DNA of 64,000 nucleotides, taken from NCBI GenBank assembly GCA_965205345.1, contig CBDBGQ010000039.1, forward strand, positions 19,600 to 83,599, written 5' to 3'. Within the stretch, counting starts at the first letter, position 1. The number at the start of each line of letters is the position of its first letter. The translations under genes were made by a program, and so were the position numbers. Below, piece after piece: positions 7,899 through 61,220 of this stretch. The notes beneath the pieces were generated by a model. The model was not told the DNA's origin, did no database searches, and worked only from the letters and a program-made list of their open reading frames with translations. This DNA comes from Acidobacteriota bacterium. Its GTDB lineage: Bacteria; Acidobacteriota; UBA6911; RPQK01; CBDAPI01.

Positions 7899-7923
7899 GA
7901 GCTACCGGAAAAGTCTAACGCCT

Positions 7924-8154
7924 TTTCACGTTCCACGAGGCTGCTCGGATCACTTTTCCCGACGGCCGGCGGGCCGCCACGCAGTCACTGTCGTTCCTGC
8001 CACTGTAGTTTCCTTGATTGTCGGCTTTCCTCGCCGCCTCCGGGCGGGTCCCGGAGATGATTCTGACCAGTCGCCGAGCCGGCAGAGGCGCGAATGCCAA
8101 TGAGCGCGCCAACGTGAAACGTGGAACGTGAAACGTGGAACGTGGAACGTGGAA
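7924..8154. repeat. inverted heptamer-array element X: (TTYCACG)2 - 175-nt core - (CGTGRAA)6
   Basis: Units read directly: TTTCACG TTCCACG at 7924-7937, and six CGTGRAA units at 8113-8154. The core shares GCAGTCACTGTCGTTCCTGC (7981-8000), CCTTGATTGTC (8012-8022) and ATGAGCGCGC with element Y at 42728-42894. Confidence 0.85.
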
Positions 8155-8158
8155 TTCC

Positions 8159-17420: not shown

Positions 17421-17452
17421 GTTCTAGGTTCTAGGTTCTGGGTTCTAGGTTC
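17413..17452. repeat. heptamer array (GGTTCTR)5.7, left half of an array split by the IS
   Basis: GGTTCTA x3, GGTTCTG, GGTTCTA, GGTTC, then the IS terminus. Confidence 0.9.
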
Positions 17453-18832: not shown

Positions 18833-18880
18833 TCTAGGTTCTGGGTTCTGGGTTCTGGGTTCTGGGTTCTGGGTTCTGGG
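18833..18880. repeat. heptamer array (GGTTCTG)6, right half of the split array
   Basis: TCTA then six GGTTCTG units (18837-18878), read directly. Confidence 0.9.
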
Positions 18881-18885
18881 GTACC

Positions 18886-18910
18886 GTAGGGGCGACCCTT
18901 GTGGTCGCCC
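18886..18910. repeat. REP-like palindrome GTAGGGGCGACCcttgtGGTCGCCC
   Basis: GTAG head followed by an 8-bp stem (GGGCGACC/GGTCGCCC) and a 5-nt loop. Confidence 0.7.
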
Positions 18911-18938
18911 GTCAACCTTCCACCTTTAACTTTCAACC
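18911..18938. repeat. degenerate heptamer array GTCAACC TTCCACC TTTAACT TTCAACC
   Basis: Read directly. The reverse complement reads GGTTGAA-type units. It ends 6 nt before the stop of the M24 peptidase gene. Confidence 0.7.
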
Positions 18939-20874: not shown

Positions 20875-23493
20875 ATGATACCGAGCGTGCCCTCCCGACT
20901 CTATCTCGTGGACGGAATGTCTCACATCTATCGTGCCTTTTACGCGATCAAGGGCCTGACCGATCGGTCCGGCCGGCCCACCAACGCCGTTTTTGGCTTT
21001 ACCAACATGCTCCGCAAGCTGATCGCAGAGGAAGAGCCCGAGTTCCTGGGAGTGGCGATCGACCTGCCCGGCCCAACCATTCGTCACCAGCAGTTCGAGG
21101 ACTACAAGGCCACCCGGCGACCCACCCCTCCGGATCTGCTGGATCAGGTGCCTCTGGTACTCGATGTGTGCCGGGTGCTCGAGATACCAGTTCTCTCCCT
21201 GCAACGTTACGAGGCTGATGACGTCATCGGAACGGTGGCAGCCAAGGCTGTCGAGGCTGATCTGGACGTAGTGATAGTGACGATCGACAAGGACATGTCC
21301 CAGCTCGTCTCAGAGCGTGTCTCCGTTCTTGACCCCAGAGACATGAAGTTGTTGGGACCTTCCGAGATCGGGAGGAAGTTCGGAGTCGAGCCTCATCAGA
21401 TCGTGGATGTGCTCAGCCTGGCAGGCGACAGCTCCGACAACATCCCCGGAGCACCTGGGATCGGGACCAAGGGCGCCCAGAAACTGATCCGACAGTATGG
21501 AAGCCTGGACGAGCTCCTGCGACACCGCTCCGAGGTCACACACAAGACCTACCGGACGAGCCTCGAGGACAATGAGGATCAGATCCTGCAGAGCCGCAAC
21601 CTGGTCACCATCCACAGGGACTTGCCGATCCCGCTGGATCTGGAGGAACTCCGGCTGAGTGAGCCCGACCGGGAGGCCGCCAGGGAGCTTTTCACCAAAC
21701 TGAACTTTCTCAGTCTGCTGGATGAGTTTATCCCGGCCGGGACGGGGCGAGAGGCTGCCTACAACCGCCTGGAAAGCCTCGACGCTTTGCGCTCCCTGCA
21801 AGAGCAGATCAAAGGCGAGAAACTCTCCCTTTTCCCCTTCCTAGAGGAATCATCAAAAGATGGCCGGCAGCTCTCCGGACTGGGGTTTTCGATGTCTGAG
21901 TGGACGGGGTGGTCGGTTTCTTCCCGGCTCTTGACGAGCCACACGGGCTCGGTCTTCGAGATTCTCGCTGCAGCCGGGGAGTGGATCGCTCACGACCTCA
22001 AGCCGCTGCTGGCCTGGCTGCGAGACAGGGAGATTCAACCGCCCTCTCATCTCTCGGACACCATGCTGATGGCCTACCTGCTGTCGCCTCACAGGAAGGA
22101 CTTCTCGCTGGAAAAAAGCTGCCTGGAACATCTCCACTACCGTTTTTCCGACACAGAAGACCAGAAGAGCCTCTTCTCCGCTCCCAACGGTGAGGAACTG
22201 GCCGAACGAGCCGATCTGACCAGGCAACTGGCTTTTCAGCTCAGCCCCGACCTTCTGACCCATGGCCTCGGGACGGTCCTGGAAAAGATTGAAATCCCGC
22301 TCATCGAGGTGCTGGTGTCCATGGAAAAGCGAGGCGTCATGATCGACGCCGAACTGCTCTCGGGAATGTCCGTCCAGACCGGTGAGGAAATCGACCGGTC
22401 AAGTAGCCGGATCTACGACCTGGCCGGCGCTGAGTTCAACATCAACTCCCCCCGCCAACTGGCCTCCGTATTGTTCGAAAAACTCGAGCTTCCAGTGGTC
22501 AAGCGGACCCGCAAAGCAGGTCACTACGCAACCGGCGCAGAGGTCCTGGAAAAGCTGGCCCAAGACCACGAAATCGCCGCCCTCATTCTCCAGTATCGGG
22601 AACTGGCCAAGCTCAAGAACACCTATCTCGATGCCCTGCCCCAACTGATCGACCGTCACACTGGAAGAGTCCACACCTCCTTCAACCAGATGGTCGCTGC
22701 CACGGGCCGACTCTCATCCAGCAACCCCAACCTCCAGAACATTCCCGTTCGAACCGAGCTGGGGCGAGCCATTCGAAAAGCCTTCATCGCGCCTCCCGGG
22801 TTCAGCATACTGACAGCCGATTATTCTCAGCTGGAACTGCGCATCATGGCTCATCTTTCCGGAGACACGACGCTGCGGCAAGCCTTTCTGGGAGGGGAAG
22901 ACATCCACTATCAGACGGCTCTTGAAGTCTTTGGCCAGGAGGTAGAAAACGATCCCCAGAGTTATCGACGAAAAGCCAAGGTTATCAACTTTGGAATCAT
23001 GTACGGCCTGAGCGCCTTTGGACTGGCCAATACTCTGAAAATCGAGAGGCGCAAAGCCCAGCAGTTCATCGACCAGTACTTTGCCCGCTACGAGGGAGTC
23101 AGGAACTGGATCGAGAACACGCTCAGCCAGGCTCGGGATTCGGGCCTGGTGACGACTCTGTTCGGACGAATCCGGCCCATCCCGGAGATCCACAGCCGAA
23201 ACTGGAACCTGCGCCACTTCGGCGAGCGAGCCGCCATCAACGCACCCATTCAGGGGACCGGAGCCGACTTGATCAAAATGGCCATGATCGACATCTATGG
23301 GAAGCTGCGGGGGCGACCTTTCAGTAGCTCGCTGATTCTCCAGGTCCACGATGAACTGGTGCTCGAGGTAGCCAACAGTGAGCTCGAGGAAGTCAGTGAA
23401 CTAGTCAAGCAGGCCATGGAATCAGCGACAGTTCTCGACGTTCCCCTGGAGGTCGAAACTGGGGTCGGCGAGTCCTGGTATCACGCCAAATAA
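20875..23493 (+). CDS. polA: DNA polymerase I
   Basis: 872 aa. 5'-nuclease N-terminus (LYLVDGMSHIYRAFYA), a 3'-5' exo-like middle region, and pol motifs RRKAKVINFGIMYG and QVHDELVLEV. Confidence 0.97.
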   Translation: MIPSVPSRLYLVDGMSHIYRAFYAIKGLTDRSGRPTNAVFGFTNMLRKLIAEEEPEFLGVAIDLPGPTIRHQQFEDYKATRRPTPPDLLDQVPLVLDVCRVLEIPVLSLQRYEADDVIGTVAAKAVEADLDVVIVTIDKDMSQLVSERVSVLDPRDMKLLGPSEIGRKFGVEPHQIVDVLSLAGDSSDNIPGAPGIGTKGAQKLIRQYGSLDELLRHRSEVTHKTYRTSLEDNEDQILQSRNLVTIHRDLPIPLDLEELRLSEPDREAARELFTKLNFLSLLDEFIPAGTGREAAYNRLESLDALRSLQEQIKGEKLSLFPFLEESSKDGRQLSGLGFSMSEWTGWSVSSRLLTSHTGSVFEILAAAGEWIAHDLKPLLAWLRDREIQPPSHLSDTMLMAYLLSPHRKDFSLEKSCLEHLHYRFSDTEDQKSLFSAPNGEELAERADLTRQLAFQLSPDLLTHGLGTVLEKIEIPLIEVLVSMEKRGVMIDAELLSGMSVQTGEEIDRSSSRIYDLAGAEFNINSPRQLASVLFEKLELPVVKRTRKAGHYATGAEVLEKLAQDHEIAALILQYRELAKLKNTYLDALPQLIDRHTGRVHTSFNQMVAATGRLSSSNPNLQNIPVRTELGRAIRKAFIAPPGFSILTADYSQLELRIMAHLSGDTTLRQAFLGGEDIHYQTALEVFGQEVENDPQSYRRKAKVINFGIMYGLSAFGLANTLKIERRKAQQFIDQYFARYEGVRNWIENTLSQARDSGLVTTLFGRIRPIPEIHSRNWNLRHFGERAAINAPIQGTGADLIKMAMIDIYGKLRGRPFSSSLILQVHDELVLEVANSELEEVSELVKQAMESATVLDVPLEVETGVGESWYHAK

Positions 23494-23495
23494 AG

Positions 23496-23681
23496 TTCCA
23501 CGTTCCACGTTCCACGTTTCTGCGAACAACCGGGGCATCGTCTGTGGACCGAACAGCGACAGATAGTGGAGCAGATGGTACGAGTCCAAGCACCGATCGC
23601 GGTCTGAGGCCCTCAGTCCAACCTTCCCAACCTAGAAACGTGAAACGTGAAACGCGGAACGTGGAACGTGGAACGTGGAAC
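23496..23681. repeat. inverted heptamer-array element W: (TTCCACG)3.5 - 114-nt core - (CGTGRAA)6.5
   Basis: The left array at 23496-23520 starts 2 nt after the polA stop. The right array is at 23635-23681. The core contains ATCGCGGTCTGAGGCCC (23596-23613), shared with elements Y and Z. Confidence 0.85.
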
Positions 23682-23730
23682 AAGTTAATTCCCTGGGGAG
23701 TGGAACCTATACCCTAAATAGATCGTCTAT

Positions 23731-33087: not shown

Positions 33088-33218
33088 GCCGTTCCACGTT
33101 GCGCGCTCATGAAAGTGGGCCTCAGGCCGCGACGTCTTGAAAGTGGGAGGTAGACTCAGGGCAGCGACCGTTTAAATCCTCCCGGGAGCCGCCCTGAGTC
33201 TGCCTTCCACTTTCCGCG
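33088..33218. repeat. heptamer-derived element Z (opposite orientation to Y) containing a 24-bp inverted repeat
   Basis: 33091-33117 is a perfect 27-nt reverse-complement match to 42862-42888. Box GGGCCTCAGGCCGCGAC lies at 33117-33133. Arms 33139-33162 and 33191-33214 pair at 22/24 positions. Confidence 0.8.
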
Positions 33219-33413
33219 AGGAACTGTATCGTGCTCATTGTTCACTTCGCTCACTGCGCTTCCTGGGCCAGATCAACATTGCCTTTACACTGCTTCGCCA
33301 GGGATGCACACTGAGGCGCCGACAGTTTGGCATTCGCGCTCTGCCCACCCGGTGCACTGGACAGATCATCTCCGGGACCGGCCCGGACGCCGCACGGAAA
33401 TGGTTGGATTTCG

Positions 33414-34793
33414 GAGCTACCATCAGAAGGTGTGTAAATAGCATAGGCGGTGAGTATCCTTCCGGGTTGATTTAAAATCCAGGGCCGAAAGGCCCGCAAC
33501 GGAAGGAGTACACACCGCATGAGCAAGCAGAACATTGAGGAAAGTGTCGAGTCAAGAGTTTGTTTCGAGGAGCTGGAAGATTGGGTGCGGGAGAAGATCC
33601 AAGGCTGGGTTCAAGAGCTGCTGGAGGAGGAAGTCACGGAGTTATTAGGGCGGCGTAAGAGTGAGCGGCGAAGGGCCGTGGACGCTCCGTCGGGCTATGG
33701 CAATGGATATGGGAAGCCGAGGCATCTGACGCTGAGCTCGGGGACGATCCAGGTTCGAAGGCCTCGAGTGCGGGATCTAGAGGAACACTTTGAAAGTCGG
33801 GTGTTGCCCCTGTTTGCCAAGCGGACGCGGCAGGTTCGAGAACTGATCCCTGAGCTGTACTTGCATGGTCTGGCGCTGGGGGATTTTGATCTGGCTCTGA
33901 GAGGGCTTTTAGGGGAAAAGGCGCACCTGTCGTCCTCCACGGTGGCCAGATTGAAAGAGCAGTGGCAGGCCGAATGGGAGGTCTGGCAGAGTCGACCCTT
34001 GAATGATCTGGAAGTGGTGTATTTATGGGTAGATGGAATCTACGTCAAGGCGGGTCTGGAGAAGGAAAAGGCAGTCCTGCTGGTGGTGCTGGCCGCCTTA
34101 AGTGACGGAAGCAAAGCCGTGGTGTCGGTCACGAGCGGCTATCGGGAATCGACCCAGAGCTGGTCGGAAGTACTGCGCGACTTGAAGCGCCGGGGGATGG
34201 GCTGTCCACGGCTGGTGATCGGAGACGGCCACCTGGGCATCTGGGGAGCTTTGCGCAACGTCTATCCCCAGGCCGAGGAGCAGCGCTGCTGGAATCATCG
34301 GATCGTCAACCTGCTGACCAAGCTCCCTAAGCGAGTGCACAAGCCGGCCTTGCTGATCCTGCGGCAGATCCCTTACGCCGAGACTCGAGAAGAAGCACAA
34401 CGACTCAAGAAGGTTTTTCAGCACTGGTGCCGGCAGCGAGGGCTGACTCTGGCGGCTGAGCTAATCGAGCAGGACTGGGACCGGATGGTGACCTTTTACC
34501 TGCTATCCAAAGAAGCAGTGGCAGCATCTGCGAACCACCAATCCAGTGGAGTCACCGTTTGCCGCTCTTCGGCTGCGAACGGACGCGGCCAAGCGATTCA
34601 AGAAAGTGGAAAACGCCCAGGCGGTGATCTGGAAGATGCTGCTGGTGGCGGAGCAGCGATTCCGCCGGTTGAAGGCACCGGAGCTGATGAAAGATGTCTA
34701 CCAGGGCGCCAAATATGTCAATGGAGTCCCGGTCAACCAAGTCCCGGAGGAGAAAGCCGCCTGATGTTTTTCCACACCTATTGACAAGAGCTC
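33414..34793 (+). mobile_element. IS256-family insertion sequence, copy 2 (1380 bp)
   Basis: Same termini as copy 1. 8-bp target duplication GGATTTCG at 33406-33413 and 34794-34801. Confidence 0.92.
33519..34784 (+). CDS. IS256/Mutator-family transposase with the same +1 frameshift (C-terminal part in ORF 34546..34764)
   Basis: The protein differs from copy 1 by one residue in the listed ORF. The frameshift is at the same ACCTTTTACCTGCTATCC site (34491-34508). Confidence 0.85.
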   Translation: MSKQNIEESVESRVCFEELEDWVREKIQGWVQELLEEEVTELLGRRKSERRRAVDAPSGYGNGYGKPRHLTLSSGTIQVRRPRVRDLEEHFESRVLPLFAKRTRQVRELIPELYLHGLALGDFDLALRGLLGEKAHLSSSTVARLKEQWQAEWEVWQSRPLNDLEVVYLWVDGIYVKAGLEKEKAVLLVVLAALSDGSKAVVSVTSGYRESTQSWSEVLRDLKRRGMGCPRLVIGDGHLGIWGALRNVYPQAEEQRCWNHRIVNLLTKLPKRVHKPALLILRQIPYAETREEAQRLKKVFQHWCRQRGLTLAAELIEQDWDRMVTFYLLSKEAVAASANHQSSGVTVCRSSAANGRGQAIQESGKRPGGDLEDAAGGGAAIPPVEGTGADERCLPGRQICQWSPGQPSPGGESRLMFFHTY

Positions 34794-35012
34794 GGATTTC
34801 GAGATCGATCTGCTAGTCTTTACTGAACAGATACAGGAGGCGCAGCTTGAACCGTCGATCTTTTCTGATCACCACCGCTGGTACGGCAACCACTTTGAAA
34901 CTGGCCCGATCCGCACCTGGGCAAGTCATTGGAACCATCGAGGACCCGGCCAGCCTGACCATCCAAAGGGCGGCAGAGCTGATCCGCCGCCGTCAGCTTT
35001 CTCCCACCGAAC

Positions 35013-38771: not shown

Positions 38772-38806
38772 TAACCTAGAACCCAGAACCTAGAACCCAG
38801 AACCCA
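38772..38806. repeat. heptamer array TAACCTA GAACCCA GAACCTA GAACCCA GAACCCA
   Basis: Lies between convergent stops (38749 and 38809) and ends 2 nt from the rmlC-like stop. Confidence 0.9.
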
Positions 38807-38808
38807 TT

Positions 38809-41571: not shown

Positions 41572-41732
41572 AGTGTACTGTCCGGGAAGTTCGCGTCGTT
41601 AATTCGGGATGGATTTTCGTCGTCAGTGAGGCGCGCGACGCAGCAATGCCGGGAGTATTTCGAGGTAGCGCAACAAAGCTGTCGGCGAAAAGACGCCCGA
41701 AGTAGCGGCGTGAACTTTCCGGACAGTGCACT
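41572..41732. repeat. 24-bp inverted repeat arms (21/24) spanning a convergent intergenic region
   Basis: AGTGTACTGTCCGGGAAGTTCGCG (41572-41595) against the reverse complement of CGTGAACTTTCCGGACAGTGCACT (41709-41732). 113-nt spacer. Confidence 0.8.
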
Positions 41733-42714
41733 AGGGAACTTCCAGCACGATCTTTCCTGTATTCCGATTGGATTCCAGGTAGGCGTGAGCCTGGTCCGCC
41801 AGTGAAAGTGGGAAGACCCTGTCCACCACCGGGCGGATGGCACCGGAGTCCAGGAGCGGACAGGTGTGGGCCTTGAAATCGGCAACCAGACGGGCTTTCT
41901 CCTCCAGCCTTCGGGAACGCAGAACCGTGCCGATAATGGTGAGCCGCTTTCGCAGCAGTACCGACAGGTCAATCTCCGCTTTTCTGCCCCCGACCAGTCC
42001 CACCACTACCATCCGTCCAAGTTCCGCCAGGCAATCCAGATTGGGAGCGAAATGGCTGGCCCCCACCAGATCGAGAATGGCCGTGACCCCCTTCCCCCGT
42101 GTTGCTTTCAACACCTCCTCACGGAAACTCTGCTCCCGGTAGTTGATGGGGAGGTCGAGGCCCAGTTCTGACAGAGCGTCCAGCTTGGACTTCAATGAAG
42201 CTGTTCCAAACACTCGGACCCCCTCGCTCCTGGCGAGCTGAATCGCCGCCGTCCCCACGCCACTGGCAGCCGCGTGAATCAGCAGGCTCTCCCCTGAACG
42301 AATCCGGAGGCGGTTGAAGAGAGCGTCGTAAGCGGTAATAAAGACCTCGGGCAGGGCTGTGGCCTGAATGAAAGTCATCCCGGAGGGGACAGGAATCAAG
42401 AGCCGGTCAGGGCAGGCCACGTACTGTGCATACGCCGCTCCGGAAACCAGTCCCATGACCCGGTCACCCGCTTTCCAGCCCTCGACCTCAGCCCCGGGCT
42501 CTTCGACTTCCCCGGCAAACTCGAGTCCCGGAATGTCTTCCCGGATCCCCGGGGGTGGAGGGTAGAGACCCTGGCGCTGTAAGAGATCCGCCCGGTTGAC
42601 CCCGGCTGCACGGACACGTACAAGGACTTCTCCGGTATTCGGTCCGGGAGGGTCTGTTTCACCGATTTTGAGAACCTCCGGGGATCCCGGCCGGGACATT
42701 ATCACTGCCTTCAT
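41731..42714 (-). CDS. NAD(P)H:quinone oxidoreductase (zinc-type ADH superfamily, Qor/PIG3-like)
   Basis: MKAVIMSRPGSPEVLKIGE...AAASGVGTAAIQLA. The start was moved to ATG 42714 because the 42747 extension is read through a heptamer array. Confidence 0.88.
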   Translation of the reverse strand: MKAVIMSRPGSPEVLKIGETDPPGPNTGEVLVRVRAAGVNRADLLQRQGLYPPPPGIREDIPGLEFAGEVEEPGAEVEGWKAGDRVMGLVSGAAYAQYVACPDRLLIPVPSGMTFIQATALPEVFITAYDALFNRLRIRSGESLLIHAAASGVGTAAIQLARSEGVRVFGTASLKSKLDALSELGLDLPINYREQSFREEVLKATRGKGVTAILDLVGASHFAPNLDCLAELGRMVVVGLVGGRKAEIDLSVLLRKRLTIIGTVLRSRRLEEKARLVADFKAHTCPLLDSGAIRPVVDRVFPLSLADQAHAYLESNRNTGKIVLEVP

Positions 42715-42727
42715 GGGGGCCCCATTG

Positions 42728-42894
42728 TTCCACGTTTCACGTTCCACGTTCCACGTTGCGCAGTCACTATCGTTCCTGCTAATCGGCTTCCCTTGATTGT
42801 CACCTTTCTCCGGCGGGGCTTTTGAACATCACGCCGGGCGGTCGCGGCCCGAGGCCCCTCCCACTTTCATGAGCGCGCAACGTGGAACCTGGAA
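42728..42894. repeat. inverted heptamer-array element Y: (TTYCACG)4 - 125-nt core - CGTGGAA CCTGGAA
   Basis: Arrays at 42728-42755 and 42881-42894. The terminal stems TTCCACGTTGCGC...GCGCAACGTGGAA are complementary. Core boxes lie at 42760-42779, 42791-42801, 42841-42857 and 42862-42888 and are shared with X, W and Z. Confidence 0.85.
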
Positions 42895-42949
42895 CCTCCC
42901 TCCGCCCCCCAAGTACAATACGCCAGCACATGGAACGCGGTGTCCCATC

Positions 42950-44575
42950 ATGAAAAAGCTGTTCCCAGCCCTCCTGTTGGCAGTCCTTCTGGTCTCCTGT
43001 GCCGAATCGCCGGCTCCCGAAAAAGCCCCATCCCCGCCCTCGGACTTCAGGCTGGTCCTGGTCCTGGCCATTGATCAGTTCCGGACGGACTACCTGGATC
43101 GCTTTGCGCCCGTCCTCAAAGGCGGGCTGGCAAGGCTGGCCGAGCGGGGAGTCTTTTTTGTCGATGGCCACCAGGATCACGCCGTCACCAATACCGGCCC
43201 GGGGCATGCCTCCATTTCGACAGGGGCTTACCCGAGCCGGTCCGGAATCATCACCAACCAGTGGTTCGACAAGCAGAGAGGGATCTCCATGTATTGCGTC
43301 GGCGACGCCAACTGGCCCCTGATCGGGTCCATCGCCCCGGGTGGCCGCTCGCCGAACAATCTCCAGGTCTCTGCCCTGCCCGACTGGATGAAGGAGCAGT
43401 GGCCCGCTTCGAAGGTCTTCACGGCCAGTTACAAAGACCGGGCAGCCATTCTACTGGGGGGACACGGAGCGGACGGAGCCTACTGGTACAGCGGCGGGGA
43501 CTTCGTGACGAGCACCTACTACCAGACCAGCTACCCCCGGTGGGTCACTGATTTCAATGACCGCAACCTGCCCGATGAATATTTTGGAAAGCTGTGGGAA
43601 CCTCTCCCGGTCGATGAAAGTGTCAAGAAGTCGATTTCCATTGAGACCACTGACTTTGGATGGTTCGAGCGCGGATTTCCGCACGCTCTTGGGGGCCGCA
43701 GCTTCCGCCCGGGACCGTCCTTTTATTCATCTTTCGCCATCAGCCCCATGCTCGACGGGTACCTTGCCGAGTTTGCGAAAGAGCTGATCGTTCGGGAAGC
43801 CATCGGTCAGGACGAGAGCCCCGATTACCTTGGATTGTCTTTTTCCGCTCCCGACCTGGTGGGGCACAGCTACGGGCCCAACAGCCCTGAACTCCTGGAT
43901 ACGCTAATCCGTCTGGACACCTATATCGGGGATCTGCTCGACTTCATCGACCAGCACATTGGATTGGATGGGACACTCATCGCACTGAGCGCGGATCATG
44001 GAGTCTGCCCCATGCCGGAATTTCAGCAGGCAAACGGTCTTCCCGGGCGCCGTGCCGATGAGGAGGATACCGCCTGCTGGCAGAATCAGATCAGCGAGAT
44101 CTCTTCCCGCCTGGGGGTCGAGGCGGCCTGGCTGCTAGACGATTTCTACCTGGACTACGAGTTGATTGAGCAGATGGAGCTCGACCCTGCCAGGGTTGAA
44201 AAAGTGGCGGCCGAAGTGCTCGAGGAGTGCCCCGCGATCCGACGCATCTGGACCCGGACGGAACTGCTCACCGAATCCGACGATCCCTTTCACCGGCTGT
44301 TCAAGAACAGCTTTCACCTGGAGCGGAGCCCGGACCTGATGCCCCAGCTGGAGGAGTACCAGGTGGCAACCAGCCTCGGGACCACTCATGGATCACCGTA
44401 CCGCTATGACACCCACGTACCCATCCTCTTTTTTCAGCCGGGCGTGGCACCGAAACGAGTCGAAGGCCGGGTTCGAACCATTGACATGGCCCCTACTCTG
44501 GCCGAGATCCTGGGCCTCGAGATCCCTCCCCATGTCCAGGGTCGAAGTCTGGTTTCTGACTTCAAAGAAGACTGA
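42950..44575 (+). CDS. alkaline phosphatase / nucleotide pyrophosphatase-phosphodiesterase family lipoprotein
   Basis: Lipobox LLVSC after MKKLFPALLLAVL. AIDQFRTDYL, TNTGPGHASISTG and SADHG motifs. The start was set at ATG 42950. Confidence 0.85.
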   Translation: MKKLFPALLLAVLLVSCAESPAPEKAPSPPSDFRLVLVLAIDQFRTDYLDRFAPVLKGGLARLAERGVFFVDGHQDHAVTNTGPGHASISTGAYPSRSGIITNQWFDKQRGISMYCVGDANWPLIGSIAPGGRSPNNLQVSALPDWMKEQWPASKVFTASYKDRAAILLGGHGADGAYWYSGGDFVTSTYYQTSYPRWVTDFNDRNLPDEYFGKLWEPLPVDESVKKSISIETTDFGWFERGFPHALGGRSFRPGPSFYSSFAISPMLDGYLAEFAKELIVREAIGQDESPDYLGLSFSAPDLVGHSYGPNSPELLDTLIRLDTYIGDLLDFIDQHIGLDGTLIALSADHGVCPMPEFQQANGLPGRRADEEDTACWQNQISEISSRLGVEAAWLLDDFYLDYELIEQMELDPARVEKVAAEVLEECPAIRRIWTRTELLTESDDPFHRLFKNSFHLERSPDLMPQLEEYQVATSLGTTHGSPYRYDTHVPILFFQPGVAPKRVEGRVRTIDMAPTLAEILGLEIPPHVQGRSLVSDFKED

Positions 44576-44605
44576 AAACCCCTGGGGTGCGACCAGGTTC
44601 CTAAT

Positions 44606-44640
44606 CGTGGAACCTGGAACCTGGAACGTGGAACCTGGAA
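44606..44640. repeat. heptamer array CGTGGAA CCTGGAA CCTGGAA CGTGGAA CCTGGAA
   Basis: Read directly. A mixed array that links the CGTGGAA and GAACCYN unit types. Confidence 0.9.
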
Positions 44641-44770
44641 CTCCAGGAGCACGAAGGGACCCTTTGAGGTAAAATTTGGGCTTGCCTCTCGAGACATGAT
44701 CGGCTATCAGTGTTCGGGACGCGTCACTGAAACCATGTAGTAGTTTCCTCCACATCTCGGAGAAAAGACC

Positions 44771-45797: not shown

Positions 45798-45968
45798 TTC
45801 CACGTTTCACGTCTTTCTCTGGGATCTGAAATCGAGAGGGCCGCGATTCGGACAGTTTCTTCTCACTTGGTTCAAGGGTTAAAGGTCAACAGTCGAAAGT
45901 CGAATTTCCCAACTCGGCAAAGCGTTGCCAAACCAGGTGACGTGGAACGTGAAACGTGAAACGTGGAA
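45798..45968. repeat. inverted heptamer-array element V: (TTYCACG)2 - core with internal NGTYNAA array - (CGTGRAA)4
   Basis: 45798-45811 reads TTCCACG TTTCACG. An internal GGTTCAA GGGTTAA AGGTCAA .. AGTCGAA AGTCGAA run lies at about 45869-45905. 45941-45968 has four CGTGRAA units ending 4 nt before ATG 45973. Confidence 0.8.
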
Positions 45969-45972
45969 CCGA

Positions 45973-48313: not shown

Positions 48314-48348
48314 GGTTGACCGTGGAACGTGGACCGTGGACCGTGGAA
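48314..48348. repeat. heptamer array GGTTGAC CGTGGAA CGTGGAC CGTGGAC CGTGGAA
   Basis: Lies between the convergent stops of coxL-like (48306) and hpf-like (48359). Confidence 0.9.
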
Positions 48349-48358
48349 CGGTGTTGCG

Positions 48359-48670
48359 CTAGTGTTCGAACTGGTCTTTGAGCTTGACGATCCGGCGAAG
48401 GGCTCGATCGGCCGATAGCGAGGCGGCCTGCACAGGATCTTCAGCCAGGGCACTCGTGAAAACGTCCTCCCAGCGCTCCATCTTCACATGCACGCTGCAG
48501 CGCTTGTCCGGACCTCCACGCGGTCCGTTCTCGTCATCCACAACGACATCGACGTGACGGATCCTGTCGCTGAACCTGTCAAAAGCGAAACGAATACGAC
48601 GTTCAATCTGTTCTCGACTCTGTTCGTTCAAATGACAGTGTCGTTCCTTCACATTCACTTCCATTCGCAT
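48359..48670 (-). CDS. HPF/RaiA-family ribosome-associated protein (short form)
   Basis: RIRHVDVVVDDENGPRGGPDKRCSVHVKM... resembles S30AE/HPF-family small proteins. GAAGGGA RBS before ATG 48670. Confidence 0.6.
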   Translation of the reverse strand: MRMEVNVKERHCHLNEQSREQIERRIRFAFDRFSDRIRHVDVVVDDENGPRGGPDKRCSVHVKMERWEDVFTSALAEDPVQAASLSADRALRRIVKLKDQFEH

Positions 48671-48766
48671 TTCCCTTCGTGAAGCACCTGCCAACTACTA
48701 TAACTGATTCCCGGACCCAGAATGGGATGATCGCGTCACACATTGACAAGGGTCAATGACAACAGA

Positions 48767-48801
48767 CGTGGAACGTGGAACCTGGAACCTGGAACGTGCA
48801 A
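48767..48801. repeat. heptamer array CGTGGAA x2, CCTGGAA x2, CGTGCAA, abutting a stop codon
   Basis: The last unit ends at 48801, and the stop codon of the gluconolactonase-like gene is at 48802-48804. Confidence 0.9.
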
Positions 48802-49893
48802 TTAGGTAATGTGCGCCCCCTGGGCTTCCACGTACACGGCGTAGAGCGACTGGCTGGCGGTCATGAACAGACGGTTGCGCTTGGTGCCTCCAAAGCACAC
48901 GTTGCCGCAGATCTCGGGCAGGCGAATCTGACCGATGCGTTCTCCGTCCGGGGCAAAGACGTGCACTCCATCATAGCCGTCTCCGACCCAGCCGGCGCTG
49001 GCCCAGATGTTTCCATCCCTGTCTGCCCGTATGCCGTCGGCCAACCCGGTCTTACCCTCCAGTTCCATGGACGTGAACTCCCTTCCCCCGGAGAGCCTGA
49101 CCGAGTCGATCACATCCCAGACCTTGATGTTCCGAGCGGATCCCGTGTCACTCACATAGAGCTTCCGATAGTCAGGAGAGAAGCACAGCCCGTTCGGCTT
49201 TTCGATCTCGTCGGTCACCTTGCCAAGCTTCCCATTCTGCGGATCGATCCGGTAGATGGCCTCTTTGATCTCGAGCACGCTCTTCTTTCCTTCGTAATGG
49301 ATCATGCTTCCGTAACCGGGATCGGTAAACCAGAGACCTCCGTCCGGGTGAACGATCGCATCATTGGGAGCATTCAGCGGCTTCCCTTCCCAGTTGTCGG
49401 CCAGAACCGTAAAGGATCCATCGTACTCGTAGCGAACCACTCGACGATTTCCATGCTCACAGGAGATCTGGCGGCCTCGGAAATCGAAAGTGTTCCCGTT
49501 GCTGTTTCCAGAAGGGTGACGGAAGGTGCTGACCTGTCCATTCTCTTCCAGCCAGCGCAGCTGAACATTGTTGGGAATGTCACTCCAGACCAGGTAACGG
49601 CCAACTCCGTTCCAGGCAGGACCCTCCGACCACAACATTTTCTTGCTGTGGTAAAGACGCTGGATGGGAGTGTTCCCGAGTTTGTATTTCGAGAAGCGCT
49701 GATCCAGGACGACGATGTCGGGATCCGGATAGCGCACCGGCCCAGCGTTGGGGCTGTACCGATCCTGAACGAGTCCGGCTCCGGCAAGTCCGGCGGCTCC
49801 CGCCACAAAGGAGCGGCGACCCATCCGTACTCTTGCAGGCCGCAGTTCCGGGTTTTCTTTTGCCACTCTACTCTCTGTCAATGGGTTCTTCAT
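48802..49893 (-). CDS. SMP-30/gluconolactonase/LRE family protein with Tat signal
   Basis: RRSFVAGAAGLAGAGL twin-arginine signal and beta-propeller motifs (GLCFSPDYRKLYVSDTG, ADGIRADRDGNIW). Confidence 0.85.
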   Translation of the reverse strand: MKNPLTESRVAKENPELRPARVRMGRRSFVAGAAGLAGAGLVQDRYSPNAGPVRYPDPDIVVLDQRFSKYKLGNTPIQRLYHSKKMLWSEGPAWNGVGRYLVWSDIPNNVQLRWLEENGQVSTFRHPSGNSNGNTFDFRGRQISCEHGNRRVVRYEYDGSFTVLADNWEGKPLNAPNDAIVHPDGGLWFTDPGYGSMIHYEGKKSVLEIKEAIYRIDPQNGKLGKVTDEIEKPNGLCFSPDYRKLYVSDTGSARNIKVWDVIDSVRLSGGREFTSMELEGKTGLADGIRADRDGNIWASAGWVGDGYDGVHVFAPDGERIGQIRLPEICGNVCFGGTKRNRLFMTASQSLYAVYVEAQGAHIT

Positions 49894-50000
49894 CCTTGGG
49901 CTCCTTGATTGGACGGGGTCGGGGTTCGCTTTCTCCAGGTTGCGATCAGGGCCAGCACCCCTTCACCCCCAGCACCGGAGGCTGCTCATCTCTTCGCTTT

Positions 50001-50042
50001 AAGTTGAAGGTTAAAGGTTGAAGGTTGAAGGTTCAAGGTTGA
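50001..50042. repeat. heptamer array AGTTGAA GGTTAAA GGTTGAA GGTTGAA GGTTCAA GGTTGAT
   Basis: Read directly. Lies 60 nt upstream of the polB start. Confidence 0.9.
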
Positions 50043-55873: not shown

Positions 55874-55914
55874 GGTCGACCGTTGACGTGAAACGTGAAA
55901 CGTGGAACGTGGAA
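55874..55914. repeat. heptamer array GGTCGAC CGTTGA CGTGAAA CGTGAAA CGTGGAA CGTGGAA
   Basis: Ends 1 nt before the stop codon (55916-55918) of the VKOR-DsbA gene. Confidence 0.9.
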
Positions 55915-55915
55915 C

Positions 55916-57130
55916 TTAGTTCCCGAGGAGCTCCTCAATCAGCGCCTCCAGCGCCGCCGCCCTCACATCCGGCACCCGCCGATTGTTCAAAAAGACGCTG
56001 GGAGTCGAGTTGATATCCAGCTCGATCCCCATCTGGATATCCGCGGCCACCCGCCCGGCAACAGCCTCGCTGGACAGGTCCTCAGCAAAGCGCTCCGTGT
56101 CCAGCCCGGCGCTGGCCGCCAGCTTGCTAAAGACGTTGGGATCGGTGCCCATGTCCTGCAGGAAGAGCACATCATGAAAGTCCCAGAACTTTCCCTGCAG
56201 CCGGGCTGCTTCTCCCGCCCGAGCCGCTTCGCAGGCCCGGTCATGCAGCTCCCGTGTCATGATCGGATTGCAGCCCTTGCCCAGTGGAAAGTGAACGAAG
56301 ACGAGACGCAGCTGCTCGGAGTAGTGCTCCTCCAGATGCCGTGCCTGGAAAGCGAAATCCTTGCAGTAGGGGCACTGAAAGTCACTGAAGACAACCATCT
56401 GCAGCAGAGCATCCTCAGAACCCAGAGACGGGTGATCGGCCCTGATCGCGACAGGCTGCAGCGGACTGGACTGATAGGCAGTCAGGAGTTCTGCCCCATT
56501 GATTTGCGGAGCTTTGCCCTCAAAGCGGACGAACTCCACCAGGACCCACTGGTAGATGACAATTCCGACCAGCAGCGGCAGCAGCAGGGCCACCAGTCTC
56601 CAGGAACTGAGCCGGGACTCGGGATCGTCGGAACTCCGCAGAAAACGGCCGGACCGGACGATCCCTCGAGCCGCGCCCGACCAGGAGAGCCCCGAGGCCA
56701 TTTTCAGTCCTGTCAGCAAAGCCAGATTGAGCGCGTTGATGAGAGCACAGGCCGGACAGAAGGGCCAGGTTCCAGAAACGAGCCCGACCAGCAGATAGAC
56801 GCTCACCACAGCACCGATACCACTGACGGCGATAGCGGCGATCATCCCCTCTCTACGGAAATCATCTCCCAGGAGAGAGGTCAACCAGACCAGGGTCAAA
56901 AGGAACCCGAAATAGACCAGTCCCCAGCCCGCCAGAGGGATGCCCATCTGGATGGAGCCCTGGCTGTGCAGTGTCCGGTCACAGCTCGCACCTAAGAGAG
57001 TCGAGCAGGCATCCCGCCCCACCTCCCAGGCTCCCAGCAGCCCCAGGTGGCGGTAAAGGAGATACCCGGAGAGCAGCCCTCCAATCAGGATCAGGATTGT
57101 GCTGAGTCGTAATGCAGTTCGCTGGCTCAT
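55916..57130 (-). CDS. vitamin K epoxide reductase (VKOR) domain fused to a DsbA-like thioredoxin domain
   Basis: N-terminal 4-5 TM segments with loop cysteines (DACSTLLGASC) and CPAC. C-terminal VVFSDFQCPYCKDF thioredoxin-fold CxxC. Confidence 0.85.
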   Translation of the reverse strand: MSQRTALRLSTILILIGGLLSGYLLYRHLGLLGAWEVGRDACSTLLGASCDRTLHSQGSIQMGIPLAGWGLVYFGFLLTLVWLTSLLGDDFRREGMIAAIAVSGIGAVVSVYLLVGLVSGTWPFCPACALINALNLALLTGLKMASGLSWSGAARGIVRSGRFLRSSDDPESRLSSWRLVALLLPLLVGIVIYQWVLVEFVRFEGKAPQINGAELLTAYQSSPLQPVAIRADHPSLGSEDALLQMVVFSDFQCPYCKDFAFQARHLEEHYSEQLRLVFVHFPLGKGCNPIMTRELHDRACEAARAGEAARLQGKFWDFHDVLFLQDMGTDPNVFSKLAASAGLDTERFAEDLSSEAVAGRVAADIQMGIELDINSTPSVFLNNRRVPDVRAAALEALIEELLGN

Positions 57131-59840: not shown

Positions 59841-61220
59841 GAGCTCTTGTCAATAGGTGTGGAAAAACATCAGGCGGCTTTCTCCTCCGGGACTTGGTTG
59901 ACCGGGACTCCATTGACATATTTGGCGCCCTGGTAGACGTCTTTCATCAGCTCCGGTGCCTTCAACCGGCGGAATCGCTGCTCCGCCACCAGCAGCATCT
60001 TCCAGATCACCGCCTGGGCGTTGTCCACTTTCTTGAATCGCTTGGCCGCGTCCGTTCGCAGCCGAAGAGCGGCAAACGGTGACTCCACTGGATTGGTGGT
60101 TCGCAGATGCTGCCACTGCTTCTTTGGATAGCAGGTAAAAGGTCACCATCCGGTCCCAGTCCTGCTCGATTAGCTCAGCCGCCAGAGTCAGCCCTCGCTG
60201 CCGGCACCAGTGCTGAAAAACCTTCTTGAGTCGTTGTGCTTCTTCTCGAGTCTCGGCGTAAGGGATCTGCCGCAGGATCAGCAAGGCCGGCTTGTGCACT
60301 CGCTTAGGGAGCTTGGTCAGCAGGTTGACGATCCGATGATTCCAGCAGCGCTGCTCCTCGGCCTGGGGATAGACGTTGCGCAAAGCTCCCCAGATGCCCA
60401 GGTGGCCGTCTCCGATCACCAGCCGTGGACAGCCCATCCCCCGGCGCTTCAAGTCGCGCAGTACTTCCGACCAGCTCTGGGTCGATTCCCGATAGCCGCT
60501 CGTGACCGACACCACGGCTTTGCTTCCGTCACTTAAGGCGGCCAGCACCACCAGCAGGACTGCCTTTTCCTTCTCCAGACCCGCCTTGACGTAGATTCCA
60601 TCTACCCATAAATACACCACTTCCAGATCATTCAAGGGTCGACTCTGCCAGACCTCCCATTCGGCCTGCCACTGCTCTTTCAATCTGGCCACCGTGGAGG
60701 ACGACAGGTGCGCCTTTTCCCCTAAAAGCCCTCTCAGAGCCAGATCAAAATTCCCCAGCGCCAGACCATGCAAGTACAGCTCAGGGATCAGTTCTCGAAC
60801 CTGCCGCGTCCGCTTGGCAAACAGGGGCAACACCCGACTTTCAAAGTGTTCCTCTAGATCCCGCACTCGAGGCCTTCGAACCTGGATCGTCCCCGAGCTC
60901 AGCGTCAGATGCCTCGGCTTCCCATATCCATTGCCATAGCCCGACGGAGCGTCCACGGCCCTTCGCCGCTCACTCTTACGCCGCCCTAATAACTCCGTGA
61001 CTTCCTCCTCCAGCAGCTCTTGAACCCAGCCTTGGATCTTCTCCCGCACCCAATCTTCCAGCTCCTCGAAACAAACTCTTGACTCGACACTTTCCTCAAT
61101 GCTCTGCTTGCTCATGCGGTGTGTACTCTTTCCGTTGCGGGCCTTTCGGCCCTGGGTTTTAAATCAACCCGGAAGGATACTCACCGCCTATGCTATTTAC
61201 ACACCTTCTGATGGTAGCTC
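59841..61220 (-). mobile_element. IS256-family insertion sequence, copy 3 (1380 bp), no target duplication
   Basis: Same termini as copies 1 and 2. The flanks GGAGATGG | IS | AATAACCG do not match. Confidence 0.9.
59850..61115 (-). CDS. IS256/Mutator-family transposase with the same +1 frameshift (C-terminal part in ORF 59870..60088)
   Basis: Three amino-acid differences from copy 1 in the listed ORF (N5S, D122N, K/Q). The frameshift is at the homologous site (about 60128-60140). Confidence 0.85.
   Translation of the reverse strand: MSKQSIEESVESRVCFEELEDWVREKIQGWVQELLEEEVTELLGRRKSERRRAVDAPSGYGNGYGKPRHLTLSSGTIQVRRPRVRDLEEHFESRVLPLFAKRTRQVRELIPELYLHGLALGNFDLALRGLLGEKAHLSSSTVARLKEQWQAEWEVWQSRPLNDLEVVYLWVDGIYVKAGLEKEKAVLLVVLAALSDGSKAVVSVTSGYRESTQSWSEVLRDLKRRGMGCPRLVIGDGHLGIWGALRNVYPQAEEQRCWNHRIVNLLTKLPKRVHKPALLILRQIPYAETREEAQRLKKVFQHWCRQRGLTLAAELIEQDWDRMVTFYLLSKEAVAASANHQSSGVTVCRSSAANGRGQAIQESGQRPGGDLEDAAGGGAAIPPVEGTGADERRLPGRQICQWSPGQPSPGGESRLMFFHTY

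What the first reader, a model, noticed from the sequence alone, without database searches (positions are those of the whole stretch)
42728..42894. Elements Y (42728-42894) and X (7924-8154) are homologous ~140-nt cores capped by inverted heptamer arrays: MITE- or structured-RNA-like family
Both elements have the layout (TTYCACG)n - core - (CGTGRAA)n, and their cores align at roughly 65-75 percent by eye. Shared blocks are GCAGTCACT[A/G]TCGTTCCTGC (42760-42779 vs 7981-8000, 19/20), CCTTGATTGTC (42791-42801 vs 8012-8022, 11/11), a CTTTC(C)TC..CGG GC-rich hairpin region, GTCGC[G/C]G..GCC, and ATGAGCGCGC(C)AACGTGRAAC at the right end. In Y the ends TTCCACGTTCCACGTTGCGC and GCGCAACGTGGAACCTGGAA are terminal inverted repeats of about 20 nt, so the whole unit can fold into one long-stemmed hairpin. 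A more diverged relative may lie at 49903-50042, where CCTTGATTG ... CTTTCTCC is followed by the GGTTGAA array. Y sits in a divergent promoter region and X sits between two co-directional genes, so the element is not tied to one gene context. No ORF is plausible because the frames are closed or array-derived.
Basis: seen in the sequence. Interest (0 to 1): 0.72.

Follow-up and report, generated by a model that had tools for sequence, protein, structure and literature searches.

The report
Mosaic intergenic repeat in heptamer arrays
X and Y are two copies, one intact and one scrambled, of a roughly 150-base non-coding repeat present in at least 50 places in one related soil Acidobacteriota genome, usually sitting between two mirror-image runs of 7-base repeats that are themselves a genome-wide, fast-changing feature of these bacteria.

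Summary
The shared blocks of X (7924-8156) and Y (42727-42899) are real. The 20-mer GCAGTCACTNTCGTTCCTGC found 79 stretches in public genomes, more than 50 of them in one Acidobacteriota MAG chromosome. X is a full-length member (covariance model 157 bits). Y is a weak, chimeric member (28.6 bits). It keeps the 5' unit and the 3' terminus, but its middle comes from a second palindromic repeat family. The proposed relative at 49903-50042 is not a member. A new partial copy lies at 33340-33413 (-). The core has conserved imperfect terminal inverted repeats, no ORF, no Rfam match and no orientation bias towards neighbouring genes. Covariation is weak, and no autonomous partner was found. The heptamer arrays are not part of the element. 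They fill 19 non-coding sites in the window and change in unit number between near-identical strains. They attract IS elements and frame other cargos, or none. At the orthologous site, relatives carry a deleted mini-copy or an IS110 between the same arrays. Best reading: a non-autonomous MITE/BIME-like repeat that accumulates in array-framed sites. Its mobilising enzyme is unknown. A structured RNA is unlikely.

The parts
7924..7937 (+). X: left (L-type) heptamer array, TTTCACG TTCCACG, 2 units
   Evidence: The near-identical strain L001 has 3 more units here.
7938..7980 (+). X: partial 5' unit with GC hairpin H1 (CGGCC 7963-7967 / GGCCG 7972-7976)
   Evidence: The H1 hairpin shows the GC<->AU double changes across copies.
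7981..8000 (+). X: conserved 5' terminal 20-mer GCAGTCACTGTCGTTCCTGC, the left arm of the imperfect TIR
   Evidence: The region is also conserved in copies ascertained from the 3' block only.
8001..8082 (+). X: variable interior (CACTG, TTCCTTGATTGTC, hairpin H2 CCGCC-TCCG-GGCGG, GTCGCCGAG)
   Evidence: Alignment A2 of 35 copies. Copies are 65-95% identical across the core (alignment columns 25-158).
8083..8110 (+). X: conserved 3' terminal block CAGAGGCGCGAAT-GCCA-ATGAGCGCGCC, the right arm of the TIR
   Evidence: It pairs with the 5' block, with several G-U pairs on this strand.
8111..8156 (+). X: right (R-type) heptamer array, AACGTGR x6.3
   Evidence: Strain L001 has 2 fewer units.
42727..42757 (+). 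Y: left heptamer array, GTTCCAC/GTTTCAC x4.4
42758..42779 (+). Y: 5' terminus GC + 20-mer GCAGTCACTATCGTTCCTGC, joined directly to the array as in L044
42780..42821 (+). Y: linker of the first family unit (TAATCGGCTTCCCTTGATTGTCACCTTTCTCCGG...). It resembles the upstream unit of two-unit copies (L009, L029, L044).
42822..42868 (+). Y: segment of a second, palindromic repeat family (..CGGTCGCGGCCCGAGGCCCCTCCCACTTTC)
   Evidence: blastn hits in 9 distinct sequences (the window itself plus 8 loci), and separately to window 33090-33215. The family stem is broken here.
42869..42878 (+). Y: 3' terminus ATGAGCGCGC
42879..42899 (+). Y: right heptamer array, AACGTGG AACCTGG AACCT
33340..33413 (-). Third, 5'-truncated copy of the family. 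It abuts an IS256-family element (33414-34794).
   Evidence: nhmmer E 1.2e-9; CM 26.5 bits, E 4.6e-4; sequence; IS boundary.
33090..33215 (-). Copy of the second repeat family followed by ..CATGAGCGCGCAACGTGGAAC, the same junction as the right end of Y

Best explanation
X and Y are copies of a dispersed, non-coding, non-autonomous mosaic repeat of one lineage of uncultured soil Acidobacteriota. The window comes from that lineage. In kind the element is a MITE/BIME-like element.

Shown. The full element (X) is about 150 nt. It has a near-invariant 5' block (GCGCAGTCACTGTCGTTCCTGCCTCTG) and a near-invariant 3' block (CAGAGGCGCGAAT..ATGAGCGCGCC). These form a 23-27 nt imperfect terminal inverted repeat. 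The interior is built from repeatable modules (CCTTGAYNGTC-N4-TTTCYYCG plus a short GC hairpin plus the 20-mer), and these modules can be iterated in tandem.

Shown. Copies lie in any orientation and in any kind of intergenic context. More than half of them are flush against a run of 7-bp repeats on the 3' side. The commonest arrangement of neighbouring arrays is (GTTCNNN)n - cargo - (NNNGAAC)n.

Inferred. These inverted array pairs are independent, hypervariable intergenic structures that act as preferred sites where repeats and IS elements settle. The element is copied into them either by a transposase supplied in trans or by recombination that uses the array homology.

Y is a decayed, recombinant copy. 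It has the 5' unit, then part of a second repeat family, then the 3' terminus, and it sits at a break of synteny. Shown: the family, its anatomy, its context and the array behaviour. Inferred: mobility and its mechanism.
For: Copy number and spread. The 20-mer scan returned 79 stretches, more than 50 of them in MAG chromosome OZ240092.1, and others in four more Acidobacteriota MAGs. The profile HMM gave 114 hits over the loci fetched to that point plus the window, about 0.7 Mb. A scan using only the 3' block found 12 further copies in one JGI metagenome.

The window's organism is close to OZ240092.1. The ECF sigma ortholog is 94% identical and the neighbourhood is syntenic.

Anatomy and TIR.

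No orientation bias: flanking-gene configurations are ++ 9, -- 9, +- 10, -+ 9.

An R array starts 0-1 nt after the 3' terminus in most of the 27 (of 47) copies that have one.

Tandem iteration of the 43-45 nt and ~71 nt modules.

The orthologous M23-peptidase/ECF-sigma spacer keeps the same array frame. It holds the full element (window, L001), an internally deleted mini-copy (L082, L083) or an IS110-family IS (L081). More distant relatives have no arrays and no element there.

Arrays as an independent, unstable feature. 19 of 20 arrays lie in the 12.7% of the window that is non-coding. Near-identical strains differ by +3 and -2 units at X. They also differ by an IS inserted inside another array. 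An IS256-family copy sits inside an array with a 9-bp duplication. For neighbouring arrays, L->R pairs number 16, against 4 R->L, 5 L-L and 4 R-R. Some of these pairs are empty or carry other cargo. Array type is not correlated with core similarity.

Y is a chimera at a synteny break.
Against: No target-site duplication could be defined, because the flanks are inverted arrays rather than direct repeats. No autonomous element with the same termini was found in about 845 kb of related sequence, or in plasmid or phage collections. No clean empty-site allele was seen: the more distant spacers are simply unalignable. No two copies are identical (maximum 94.5%, mean 81%), so there is no sign of recent bursts. 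Several blocks that were not used to find the copies are nearly invariant (CTCTG, TTCCTTG, CCGAG, CAGAGGCGCGAAT), while the interior has diverged by 20-35%. That pattern could mean each copy is under selection for a host function rather than being merely selfish. The 20-mer's own invariance in alignment A2 is partly an ascertainment effect.
Confidence: 0.6

Rival explanations
1. Host-domesticated structural or regulatory DNA/RNA element of the REP/BIME type. Each copy would be kept because it binds a nucleoid or topology protein. Alternatively, as part of the flanking mRNA, its long hairpin would stabilise or terminate transcripts. Mobility would be secondary.
For: There is position-specific conservation in blocks not used for ascertainment, while the interior diverges. 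Location is strictly intergenic, often a few nucleotides from stop or start codons. Hairpin-plus-tag units are iterated in tandem as in REP clusters. The element persists at the same orthologous site in two species-level relatives.
Against: There is no preference for 3' ends of genes or for convergent spacers. No terminator-like U tract was found. There is no GTAG or CGTC tag as in the two REP super-families (PMC3733652; sequence). At the orthologous site the element can be reduced to about 50 nt or replaced by an IS without loss of the neighbouring genes. Y lacks most of the conserved interior.
Confidence: 0.2
2. A multi-copy structured non-coding RNA gene or cis-regulatory RNA, transcribed from the strand that carries the 20-mer first.
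For: 96% of cells are paired in the consensus fold, and the pairing is lost when partners are slid. Many G-U pairs make the long stem fold better on the + strand than on the - strand. Hairpin H1 shows GC<->AU double changes.
Against: No Rfam family matches, even at E<=10. Ten of the 21 pairs of the long stem (helices 2 and 3) never vary, and none of the 21 shows a double-sided change. The H1 double changes may reflect two subfamilies rather than repeated compensation. Orientation relative to genes is random. No promoter or terminator consensus was found. Y and the L082 mini-copy lack the inner stem.
Confidence: 0.1
3. A foldback-type transposon whose terminal inverted repeats are the heptamer arrays themselves, with the X/Y core as one of several loop cargos carried along.
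For: The L-cargo-R geometry dominates (16 of 29 classified neighbouring pairs). L and R units are complementary in 7 of 10 copies that have both. Different cargos occur between the same kind of arms.
Against: Array type is not co-inherited with core relatedness (permutation p 0.25). 17 of 47 copies have only an R array and 13 have none. At orthologous spacers arrays appear to grow in place from single GTTCC/GGAAC or AACCC seeds. Arrays also occur singly next to genes.
Confidence: 0.1

Closest known systems
MITEs (miniature inverted-repeat transposable elements) of bacteria
   Same: Small (~150 nt), non-coding, AT LEAST 50 intergenic copies per genome, imperfect terminal inverted repeats (16 of 23 positions), able to fold into a long hairpin, and no orientation preference.
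   Different: No target-site duplication could be defined. No parent IS with the same ends was found. The element has a modular interior with tandemly iterated units, and its ends are usually fused to 7-bp tandem arrays.
REP / BIME / REPIN mosaic elements of proteobacteria, and the TIR repeats associated with tyrosine transposases (TIRYT) reported in Acidobacteria (PMC3733652)
   Same: Mosaic combinations of a short GC hairpin plus a conserved tag, found singly, in inverted pairs or in tandem clusters in intergenic DNA. They are also targets for IS insertion (Tobes and Pareja 2006, as listed in PMC3116915).
   Different: There is no GTAG or CGTC tag. The conserved tag is 20 nt long and lies 3' of the hairpin. 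The Y1 transposase genes seen in the related genome have unrelated ends, so no REPtron-like or TIRtron-like association was found.
BOX elements of Streptococcus pneumoniae (own knowledge)
   Same: Modular structure with fixed terminal modules and an internal module that varies in copy number. The elements are intergenic and hairpin-forming, and no transposase is known.
   Different: The sequence is unrelated, the phylum is different, and BOX elements are not framed by heptamer arrays.
STRR (short tandemly repeated repetitive) heptamer sequences of filamentous cyanobacteria (PMC2670836)
   Same: This comparison applies to the arrays, not the core. Both are 7-bp tandem repeats in intergenic regions, can form hairpins, and have no known function.
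   Different: Unit sequences differ (GTTCCAC, GGTTCTR, GGTTGAA, AATCTGG and others), and the phylum differs. Here the arrays come predominantly as inverted L->R pairs that frame repeats and IS elements.
Foldback (FB) transposons of eukaryotes (own knowledge)
   Same: Long inverted arms made of short tandem repeats of variable number around a variable middle.
   Different: Here the arms are not co-inherited with the middle, no transposase is associated, and the host is a bacterium.

Membership tests
MITE | Small, non-coding, multi-copy, intergenic | tested here: met
   The core is ~150 nt. ORFs across X and Y are short and unconserved. 79 stretches carry the 20-mer and there are 114 HMM hits. 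Copies lie between genes.
MITE | Terminal inverted repeats | tested here: met
   GCGCAGTCACTGTCGTTCCTGCC against the reverse complement of the 3' end, GCGCGCTCATTGGCATTCGCGCC: 16 of 23 positions match (sequence of X). The two blocks pair in the consensus fold.
MITE | Target-site duplication flanking each copy | tested here: inconclusive
   The flanks are inverted heptamer arrays or unrelated sequence, and the left boundary varies with the number of units. No direct repeat was recognised.
MITE | Autonomous IS with the same termini | tested here: not met
   No 20-mer ... 3' block pair encloses a gene in ~845 kb of related loci. All 12 copies found from the 3' block alone are short. There are no plasmid or phage matches. 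Whole genomes could not be scanned.
MITE | Presence/absence polymorphism at orthologous sites | tested here: inconclusive
   The full copy is in the window and L001, a deleted mini-copy in L082/L083, and an IS110 in its place in L081. The element is absent from relatives at 83% and 71% protein identity, but their spacers are unalignable.
REP/BIME (REPIN) | Short palindromic unit with GTAG or CGTC tag | tested here: not met
   The unit is a 5-6 bp GC hairpin followed by GGC and the 20-mer. No GTAG or CGTC tag is at the hairpin foot. Definition from PMC3733652.
REP/BIME (REPIN) | Association with a RAYT/TIRYT Y1 transposase gene flanked by the repeats | tested here: not met
   Y1 transposase genes lie in L036, L039, L050 and L009, but 1-5 kb from the elements. 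The 604-bp IS that carries three of them has unrelated ends.
Structured RNA family | Match to a curated RNA family | tested here: not met
   Rfam 15 gave only the tmRNA in the window. There is nothing at X or Y at E<=10 except a chance lncRNA hit at E 9.3.
Structured RNA family | Compensatory base changes supporting the fold | tested here: inconclusive
   6 of 36 pairs show double changes, and none of them is in the long closing stem. The shuffle and slide controls favour the structure, but the structure was derived from the same alignment.
Structured RNA family | Consistent strand relative to a promoter/terminator or to the regulated gene | tested here: not met
   Orientation relative to flanking genes is random. 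No promoter or terminator consensus was found. Expression itself is not testable with these tools.
STRR-like heptamer arrays (the caps) | Tandem 7-bp units, intergenic, hairpin-forming | tested here: met
   255 such arrays occur in 783 kb of related loci.
Foldback transposon | Arms of tandem repeats move together with the middle | tested here: not met
   Array type is independent of core similarity. Many copies have one array or none.

The most novel reading that the evidence does not exclude
The real novelty would be the frame, not the core. This Acidobacteriota lineage would maintain some thousand or more inverted pairs of hypervariable 7-bp arrays, (GTTCNNN)n ... (NNNGAAC)n, at gene boundaries. 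The L->R geometry is what results if the same unit is added to both 3' ends of a break, or if one arm is copied from the other in a foldback. The arrays would be produced or homogenised by a dedicated activity, and would serve as exchangeable docking sites where short repeats (the X/Y family and at least two others) and IS elements are swapped in and out. That would be a bacterial cassette-exchange or foldback system with no described counterpart.
Probability: 0.15. Interest if true: 0.8.

Novelty: new variant of a known kind. Interest (0 to 1): 0.55.

Why it matters
Dispersed intergenic repeats shape bacterial chromosomes. They seed rearrangements, attract insertion sequences and can alter expression of neighbouring genes. 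Almost all that is known about them comes from proteobacteria, firmicutes and cyanobacteria. Here a large family is defined in an abundant but uncultured soil phylum. It is tied to 7-bp arrays that differ in unit number between near-identical strains and that repeatedly host IS elements. One copy (Y) sits exactly where gene order breaks. If the arrays prove to be active docking sites, they would explain how such genomes shuffle small DNA modules. They would also give strain-level markers for long-read metagenomics.

Tried and rejected
1. 'Z' at 49903-50042 as a diverged relative. There was no HMM or CM hit. The shared CCTTGATTG is the complement of a ribosome-binding site.

2. A known RNA family. 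Rfam found nothing. I also looked by eye for a hammerhead-like CUGAUGA/GAAA arrangement in GGCGCGAAUCUUGAUGAGCGCGCC. The order of the motifs does not fit a three-way junction.

3. A sigma-54 or ECF-sigma promoter in the conserved blocks or arrays. The spacings do not fit, and the blocks are not oriented towards genes.

4. A small ORF. The ATG in ATGAGCGCGC opens different frames in X and Y, and Y's open frame to the downstream gene precedes a clear lipoprotein signal peptide.

5. Homology with 20-mer hits in Woesearchaeota MAGs (L057, L074, L079). The CM scores are not significant (E 0.35-0.4, and 0.012).

6. A larger autonomous element, sought where the 20-mer is followed by other sequence (L014, L017, L045 and others). 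No matching 3' end was found.

7. The IS256-family element (three copies in the window), the IS110 in L081 and the IS200-type IS in relatives as parents. Their ends are unrelated.

8. Arrays as part of the element. Rejected by the array-type against core-similarity test.

9. Literature. No paper on heptamer repeats or MITEs of this kind in Acidobacteria was found. Elhai et al. 2008 could not be read.

10. Plasmid and phage collections gave no real match.

Full report
**Observation.**

Both loci have the described layout. Y is 42727-42899: (GTTCCAC/GTTTCAC)x4.4, then a core, then AACGTGG AACCTGG AACCT. X is 7924-8156: TTTCACG TTCCACG, then a core, then (AACGTGR)x6.3.

The array motif is far above chance, with 31 matches to CGTGRAACGTGRAA against 0.06 expected. 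The 20-mer GCAGTCACTRTCGTTCCTGC occurs only in X and Y, with 0.02 expected. Both units fold into long hairpins closed by the arrays on either strand.

**What the family is.**

A scan of one genome per species for GCAGTCACTNTCGTTCCTGC returned 79 stretches (the list may be capped near 80). More than 50 lie in a single Acidobacteriota MAG chromosome, OZ240092.1. Others lie in four further Acidobacteriota MAGs, and the rest are scattered matches in unrelated genomes.

Around nearly all the Acidobacteriota hits the same ~150-nt sequence follows. Its consensus is ..hairpin-GGC | GCAGTCACTGTCGTTCCTGC CTCTGYAGTTTCCTTGACGGTCAGCTTTCCTCG CGGCTGGCGGGCCG GTCCCGGAGATGATCTGTCCCGTCGCCGAGCGGGCAGAGGCGCGAATCTTGATGAGCGCGCC | array. 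Thirty-five distinct full-length copies, X among them, align at 82% mean column identity.

The window's organism is a close relative of OZ240092.1. Its ECF sigma factor next to X has a 94% identical ortholog on that chromosome, in conserved synteny. The window's source, or a near-identical strain of it, is ENA metagenome contig ERZ25766727:ctg352177.

A second scan used only the 3' block (CAGAGGCGCGAAT-N2-8-ATGAGCGCGC). It found 12 more copies in one JGI metagenome. In those copies the 20-mer region is still conserved, mostly as GCAGTCACTGGCGTTCCTGC. This matters because the invariance of the 20-mer in alignment A2 is partly an effect of how those copies were found.

**Members in the window.**

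- A profile HMM of A2 hits X, Y and a new partial copy on the minus strand near 33328-33401.
- A covariance model run with filters off gives X 157 bits, Y 28.6 bits (E 1.6e-4) and 33340-33427(-) 26.5 bits.
- Nothing appears at 49903-50042, even at E<=10.
- The supposed 'Z' shares only CTCCTTGATTG. That string is the complement of a ribosome-binding site in front of the minus-strand gene 48802-49893.
- The partial copy really ends at 33413, where an IS256-family element begins.

**Y is a chimera.**

Its left end (array, GC, 20-mer, TAATCGGCTTCCCTTGATTGTCACCTTTCTCCGG) matches the first unit of two-unit copies such as L044, L029 and L009. Segment 42822-42868 belongs to a second, palindromic repeat family (GAGAGTGGGAGGGGCC..GGCCCCTCCCACTCTC). 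That family is found in 9 distinct sequences (the window itself plus 8 loci), and also at window 33090-33215. The same junction ..CCCACTTTCATGAGCGCGCAACGTGGAAC occurs at 33140-33090(-). In the model alignment the inner half of the family stem is broken in Y.

Y also lies at a break of synteny. In four relatives the quinone oxidoreductase is preceded by AtuA, whereas in the window it is preceded by a phosphodiesterase.

**Structure and strand.**

RNAalifold pairs the 5' block with the 3' block into a long closing stem, with an internal hairpin and a hairpin 5' of the 20-mer. In that fold 96% of cells are paired, against 38-48% when partners are slid.

Ten of the 21 pairs of the long stem (helices 2 and 3) never vary, and none of the 21 has a change on both sides. 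Double-sided changes occur in hairpin H1, in a two-pair helix and in one pair of H2. Several conserved G-U pairs make the stem fold on the 20-mer strand and not on its complement. One-sided changes are compatible with independent transitions. Read as DNA, the two blocks are a 23-nt imperfect inverted repeat with 16 of 23 positions matching.

**Context.**

Among 37 full copies with callable neighbours, the four configurations of flanking genes are equally frequent: 9, 9, 10 and 9. No sigma-70 promoter or intrinsic terminator consensus lies in or near X or Y.

No Rfam family matches. Copies are 65-95% identical and none are identical. The conserved blocks CTCTG, TTCCTTG, CCGAG and CAGAGGCGCGAAT were not used to find the copies, yet they are 97-100% conserved.

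**The heptamer arrays are a separate phenomenon.**

- In the window, 19 of 20 period-7 arrays lie in the 12.7% of sequence that is non-coding (P about 1e-16). They often lie within a few bases of a stop or start codon.
- Unit types differ from site to site: AACGTGG, AACCYAG, AACCTTC, AATCTGG and others.
- In 783 kb of related loci there are 255 arrays.
- Neighbouring arrays within 400 nt are L->R in 16 cases, against 4 R->L, 5 L-L and 4 R-R. Some L->R pairs are empty (gaps of -2, 19 and 31 nt) and others carry a different repeat family.
- In the window, the L->R pairs at 23493-23684 and 45798-45970 enclose sequence with no relative in the sampled loci.
- Of 47 near-full copies of the X/Y family, 27 have an R array, in most cases starting 0-1 nt after the 3' terminus, and 17 have an L array. 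In 7 of the 10 copies with both, the units are complementary.
- Array type does not follow core relatedness (permutation p 0.25).

**Arrays are unstable and attract IS elements.**

The window and the near-identical contig L001 are 99.4-99.9% identical. They differ by +3 heptamers at 7923 and -2 heptamers at 8111. They also differ by one 10-nt unit elsewhere and by a ~1.6 kb IS inside the (CAGAACC)n array at 14094. An IS256-family element sits inside the (GGTTCTR)n array at 17452-18832, with a 9-bp duplication.

**Orthologous sites.**

The spacer between the M23 peptidase and the ECF sigma gene differs between relatives:

| Locus | Content of the spacer |
|---|---|
| window, L001 | L array, full X, R array |
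| L082, L083 (94% protein identity) | L array, hairpin, 20-mer joined directly to AATGAGCGCGCC, R array. This form is unique to that locus and has TGCC at both junctions, so it is an internal deletion. |
| L081 (same protein, another genome) | L array, a ~1.6 kb IS110-family element, R array |
| relative at 83% identity | other repeats |
| relatives at 71% identity | an AT-rich spacer with no arrays |

At two other spacers the OZ240092-like genome has 13-nt and 45-nt gaps. These hold only single AACCC or GTTCC..GGAAC seeds, whereas the window and other relatives have arrays of several types there. So the arrays grow in place and the middle is exchangeable.

**Mobilising enzyme.**

None was identified. 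No pair of family termini encloses a gene. Y1 (IS200-type) transposase genes occur in four of the 20-mer loci, but they lie 1-5 kb away. The 604-bp IS carrying three of them has unrelated ends. Those ends share GAGAGTGGGA with the arms of the second repeat family, which may be worth following. Acidobacteria are known to carry tyrosine transposases flanked by TIR repeats that form repeat families (PMC3733652), which makes a Y1 enzyme a reasonable candidate. There are no matches in plasmid or phage collections.

**Verdict.**

The best explanation (confidence about 0.6) is a non-autonomous, mosaic, MITE/BIME-like repeat family that accumulates within independent, hypervariable inverted heptamer arrays. 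Y is a recombinant, decayed copy.

The rivals are a REP-like domesticated element (0.2), a structured RNA (0.1) and a true foldback transposon (0.1).

The closest known analogues are bacterial MITEs, REP/BIME/REPIN and BOX elements for the core. For the arrays the closest analogue is the cyanobacterial STRR heptamers, which are 7-bp repeats that form hairpins and have no known function (PMC2670836).

The family is new. Its coupling to array frames is, to my knowledge and in the searched literature, undescribed. I rate it a new variant of a known kind, of moderate interest.

Noticed in passing
window 17452-18832, 33414-34794, 59841-61220: Three 99.7-99.9% identical copies of a 1380-1381 bp IS256-family insertion sequence (421-aa Mutator-type transposase). 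Copy 1 lies inside a (GGTTCTR)n heptamer array with a 9-bp duplication, TCTAGGTTC. Copy 2 has an 8-bp duplication, GGATTTCG. Copy 3 has none, which suggests a rearrangement between copies.
   Followed up: yes
window, 20 sites (e.g. 14087-14117, 17411-17455, 18833-18883, 23493-23521, 23634-23684, 38773-38808, 44606-44642, 48321-48351, 48765-48801, 50003-50042, 55885-55919): Period-7 tandem arrays of several unit types fill non-coding spacers (19 of 20 arrays in 12.7% of the sequence). They often touch stop or start codons. The operon 14121-17420 has (AACCCAG)n just before its start and the complementary (GGTTCTA)n over its stop.
   Followed up: partly
window 7923, 8111, 14094 compared with locus L001: A near-identical strain differs by +3 and -2 heptamers in the two arrays of X. 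It also carries a ~1.6 kb insertion sequence inside the (CAGAACC)n array. The arrays are therefore hot spots of length change and IS insertion.
   Followed up: yes
window 44593-44642; 23493-23684; 45798-45970: These are inverted L->R array pairs without X/Y cargo. One is almost empty (CCAGGTTCC-TAATCGT-GGAACCTGG...), and two enclose 112-128 nt of sequence with no relative in the sampled loci.
   Followed up: partly
window 33090-33215 (-), 33216-33330, 18884-18915: Other repeat families of the same genomes are present: a ~70-nt palindrome (GAGAGTGGGAGGGGCC...GGCCCCTCCCACTCTC), a ~100-nt family (AATGTTGATCTGGCCCAGGAAGCGC...), and a REP-like hairpin GTACCGTAGGGGCGACCCTTGTGGTCGCCC. Each has hits in 8-11 related loci.
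   Followed up: partly
window 41731-44575 compared with loci L089-L092: Gene order breaks exactly at Y. Relatives have AtuA divergent from the quinone oxidoreductase, and the window has a type I phosphodiesterase instead.
   Followed up: partly
L081 8226-10000: In a relative, an IS110-family element occupies the space between the same inverted heptamer arrays that hold X in the window. Its end GGCGCCTTGGGGCGGCGAC recurs next to the second repeat family in L048.
   Followed up: partly
L050 (6472-7075), L039 993-1596, L009 3936-4392: A 604-bp IS200-type element with a Y1 transposase is present, one copy internally deleted. Its ends GGGTCCCACTCT.. and ..GAGAGTGGGACCC share GAGAGTGGGA with the arms of the second repeat family. 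It is a possible parent or mobiliser of that family.
   Followed up: no
L057 2247-2266, L074 4633-4652, L079 5147-5166: The exact 20-mer also occurs in three Woesearchaeota MAG contigs, followed by a hairpin and, in two of them, by CTGAGGCGCGAGTG..GCGAGCGCC. In L079 it lies in a small insert flanked by a ~38-nt duplication of a tRNA 3' end. The covariance model does not support homology (E 0.01-0.4).
   Followed up: partly
window 13561-13920 (-): A tmRNA gene (186 bits) with tag peptide ANDQLALAA lies next to the array at 14087.
   Followed up: yes
window 48321-48801: Two R-type arrays in the same orientation flank a small minus-strand ORF (48359-48694, 112 aa) and its upstream region. This is an unusual R...R arrangement.
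   Followed up: no
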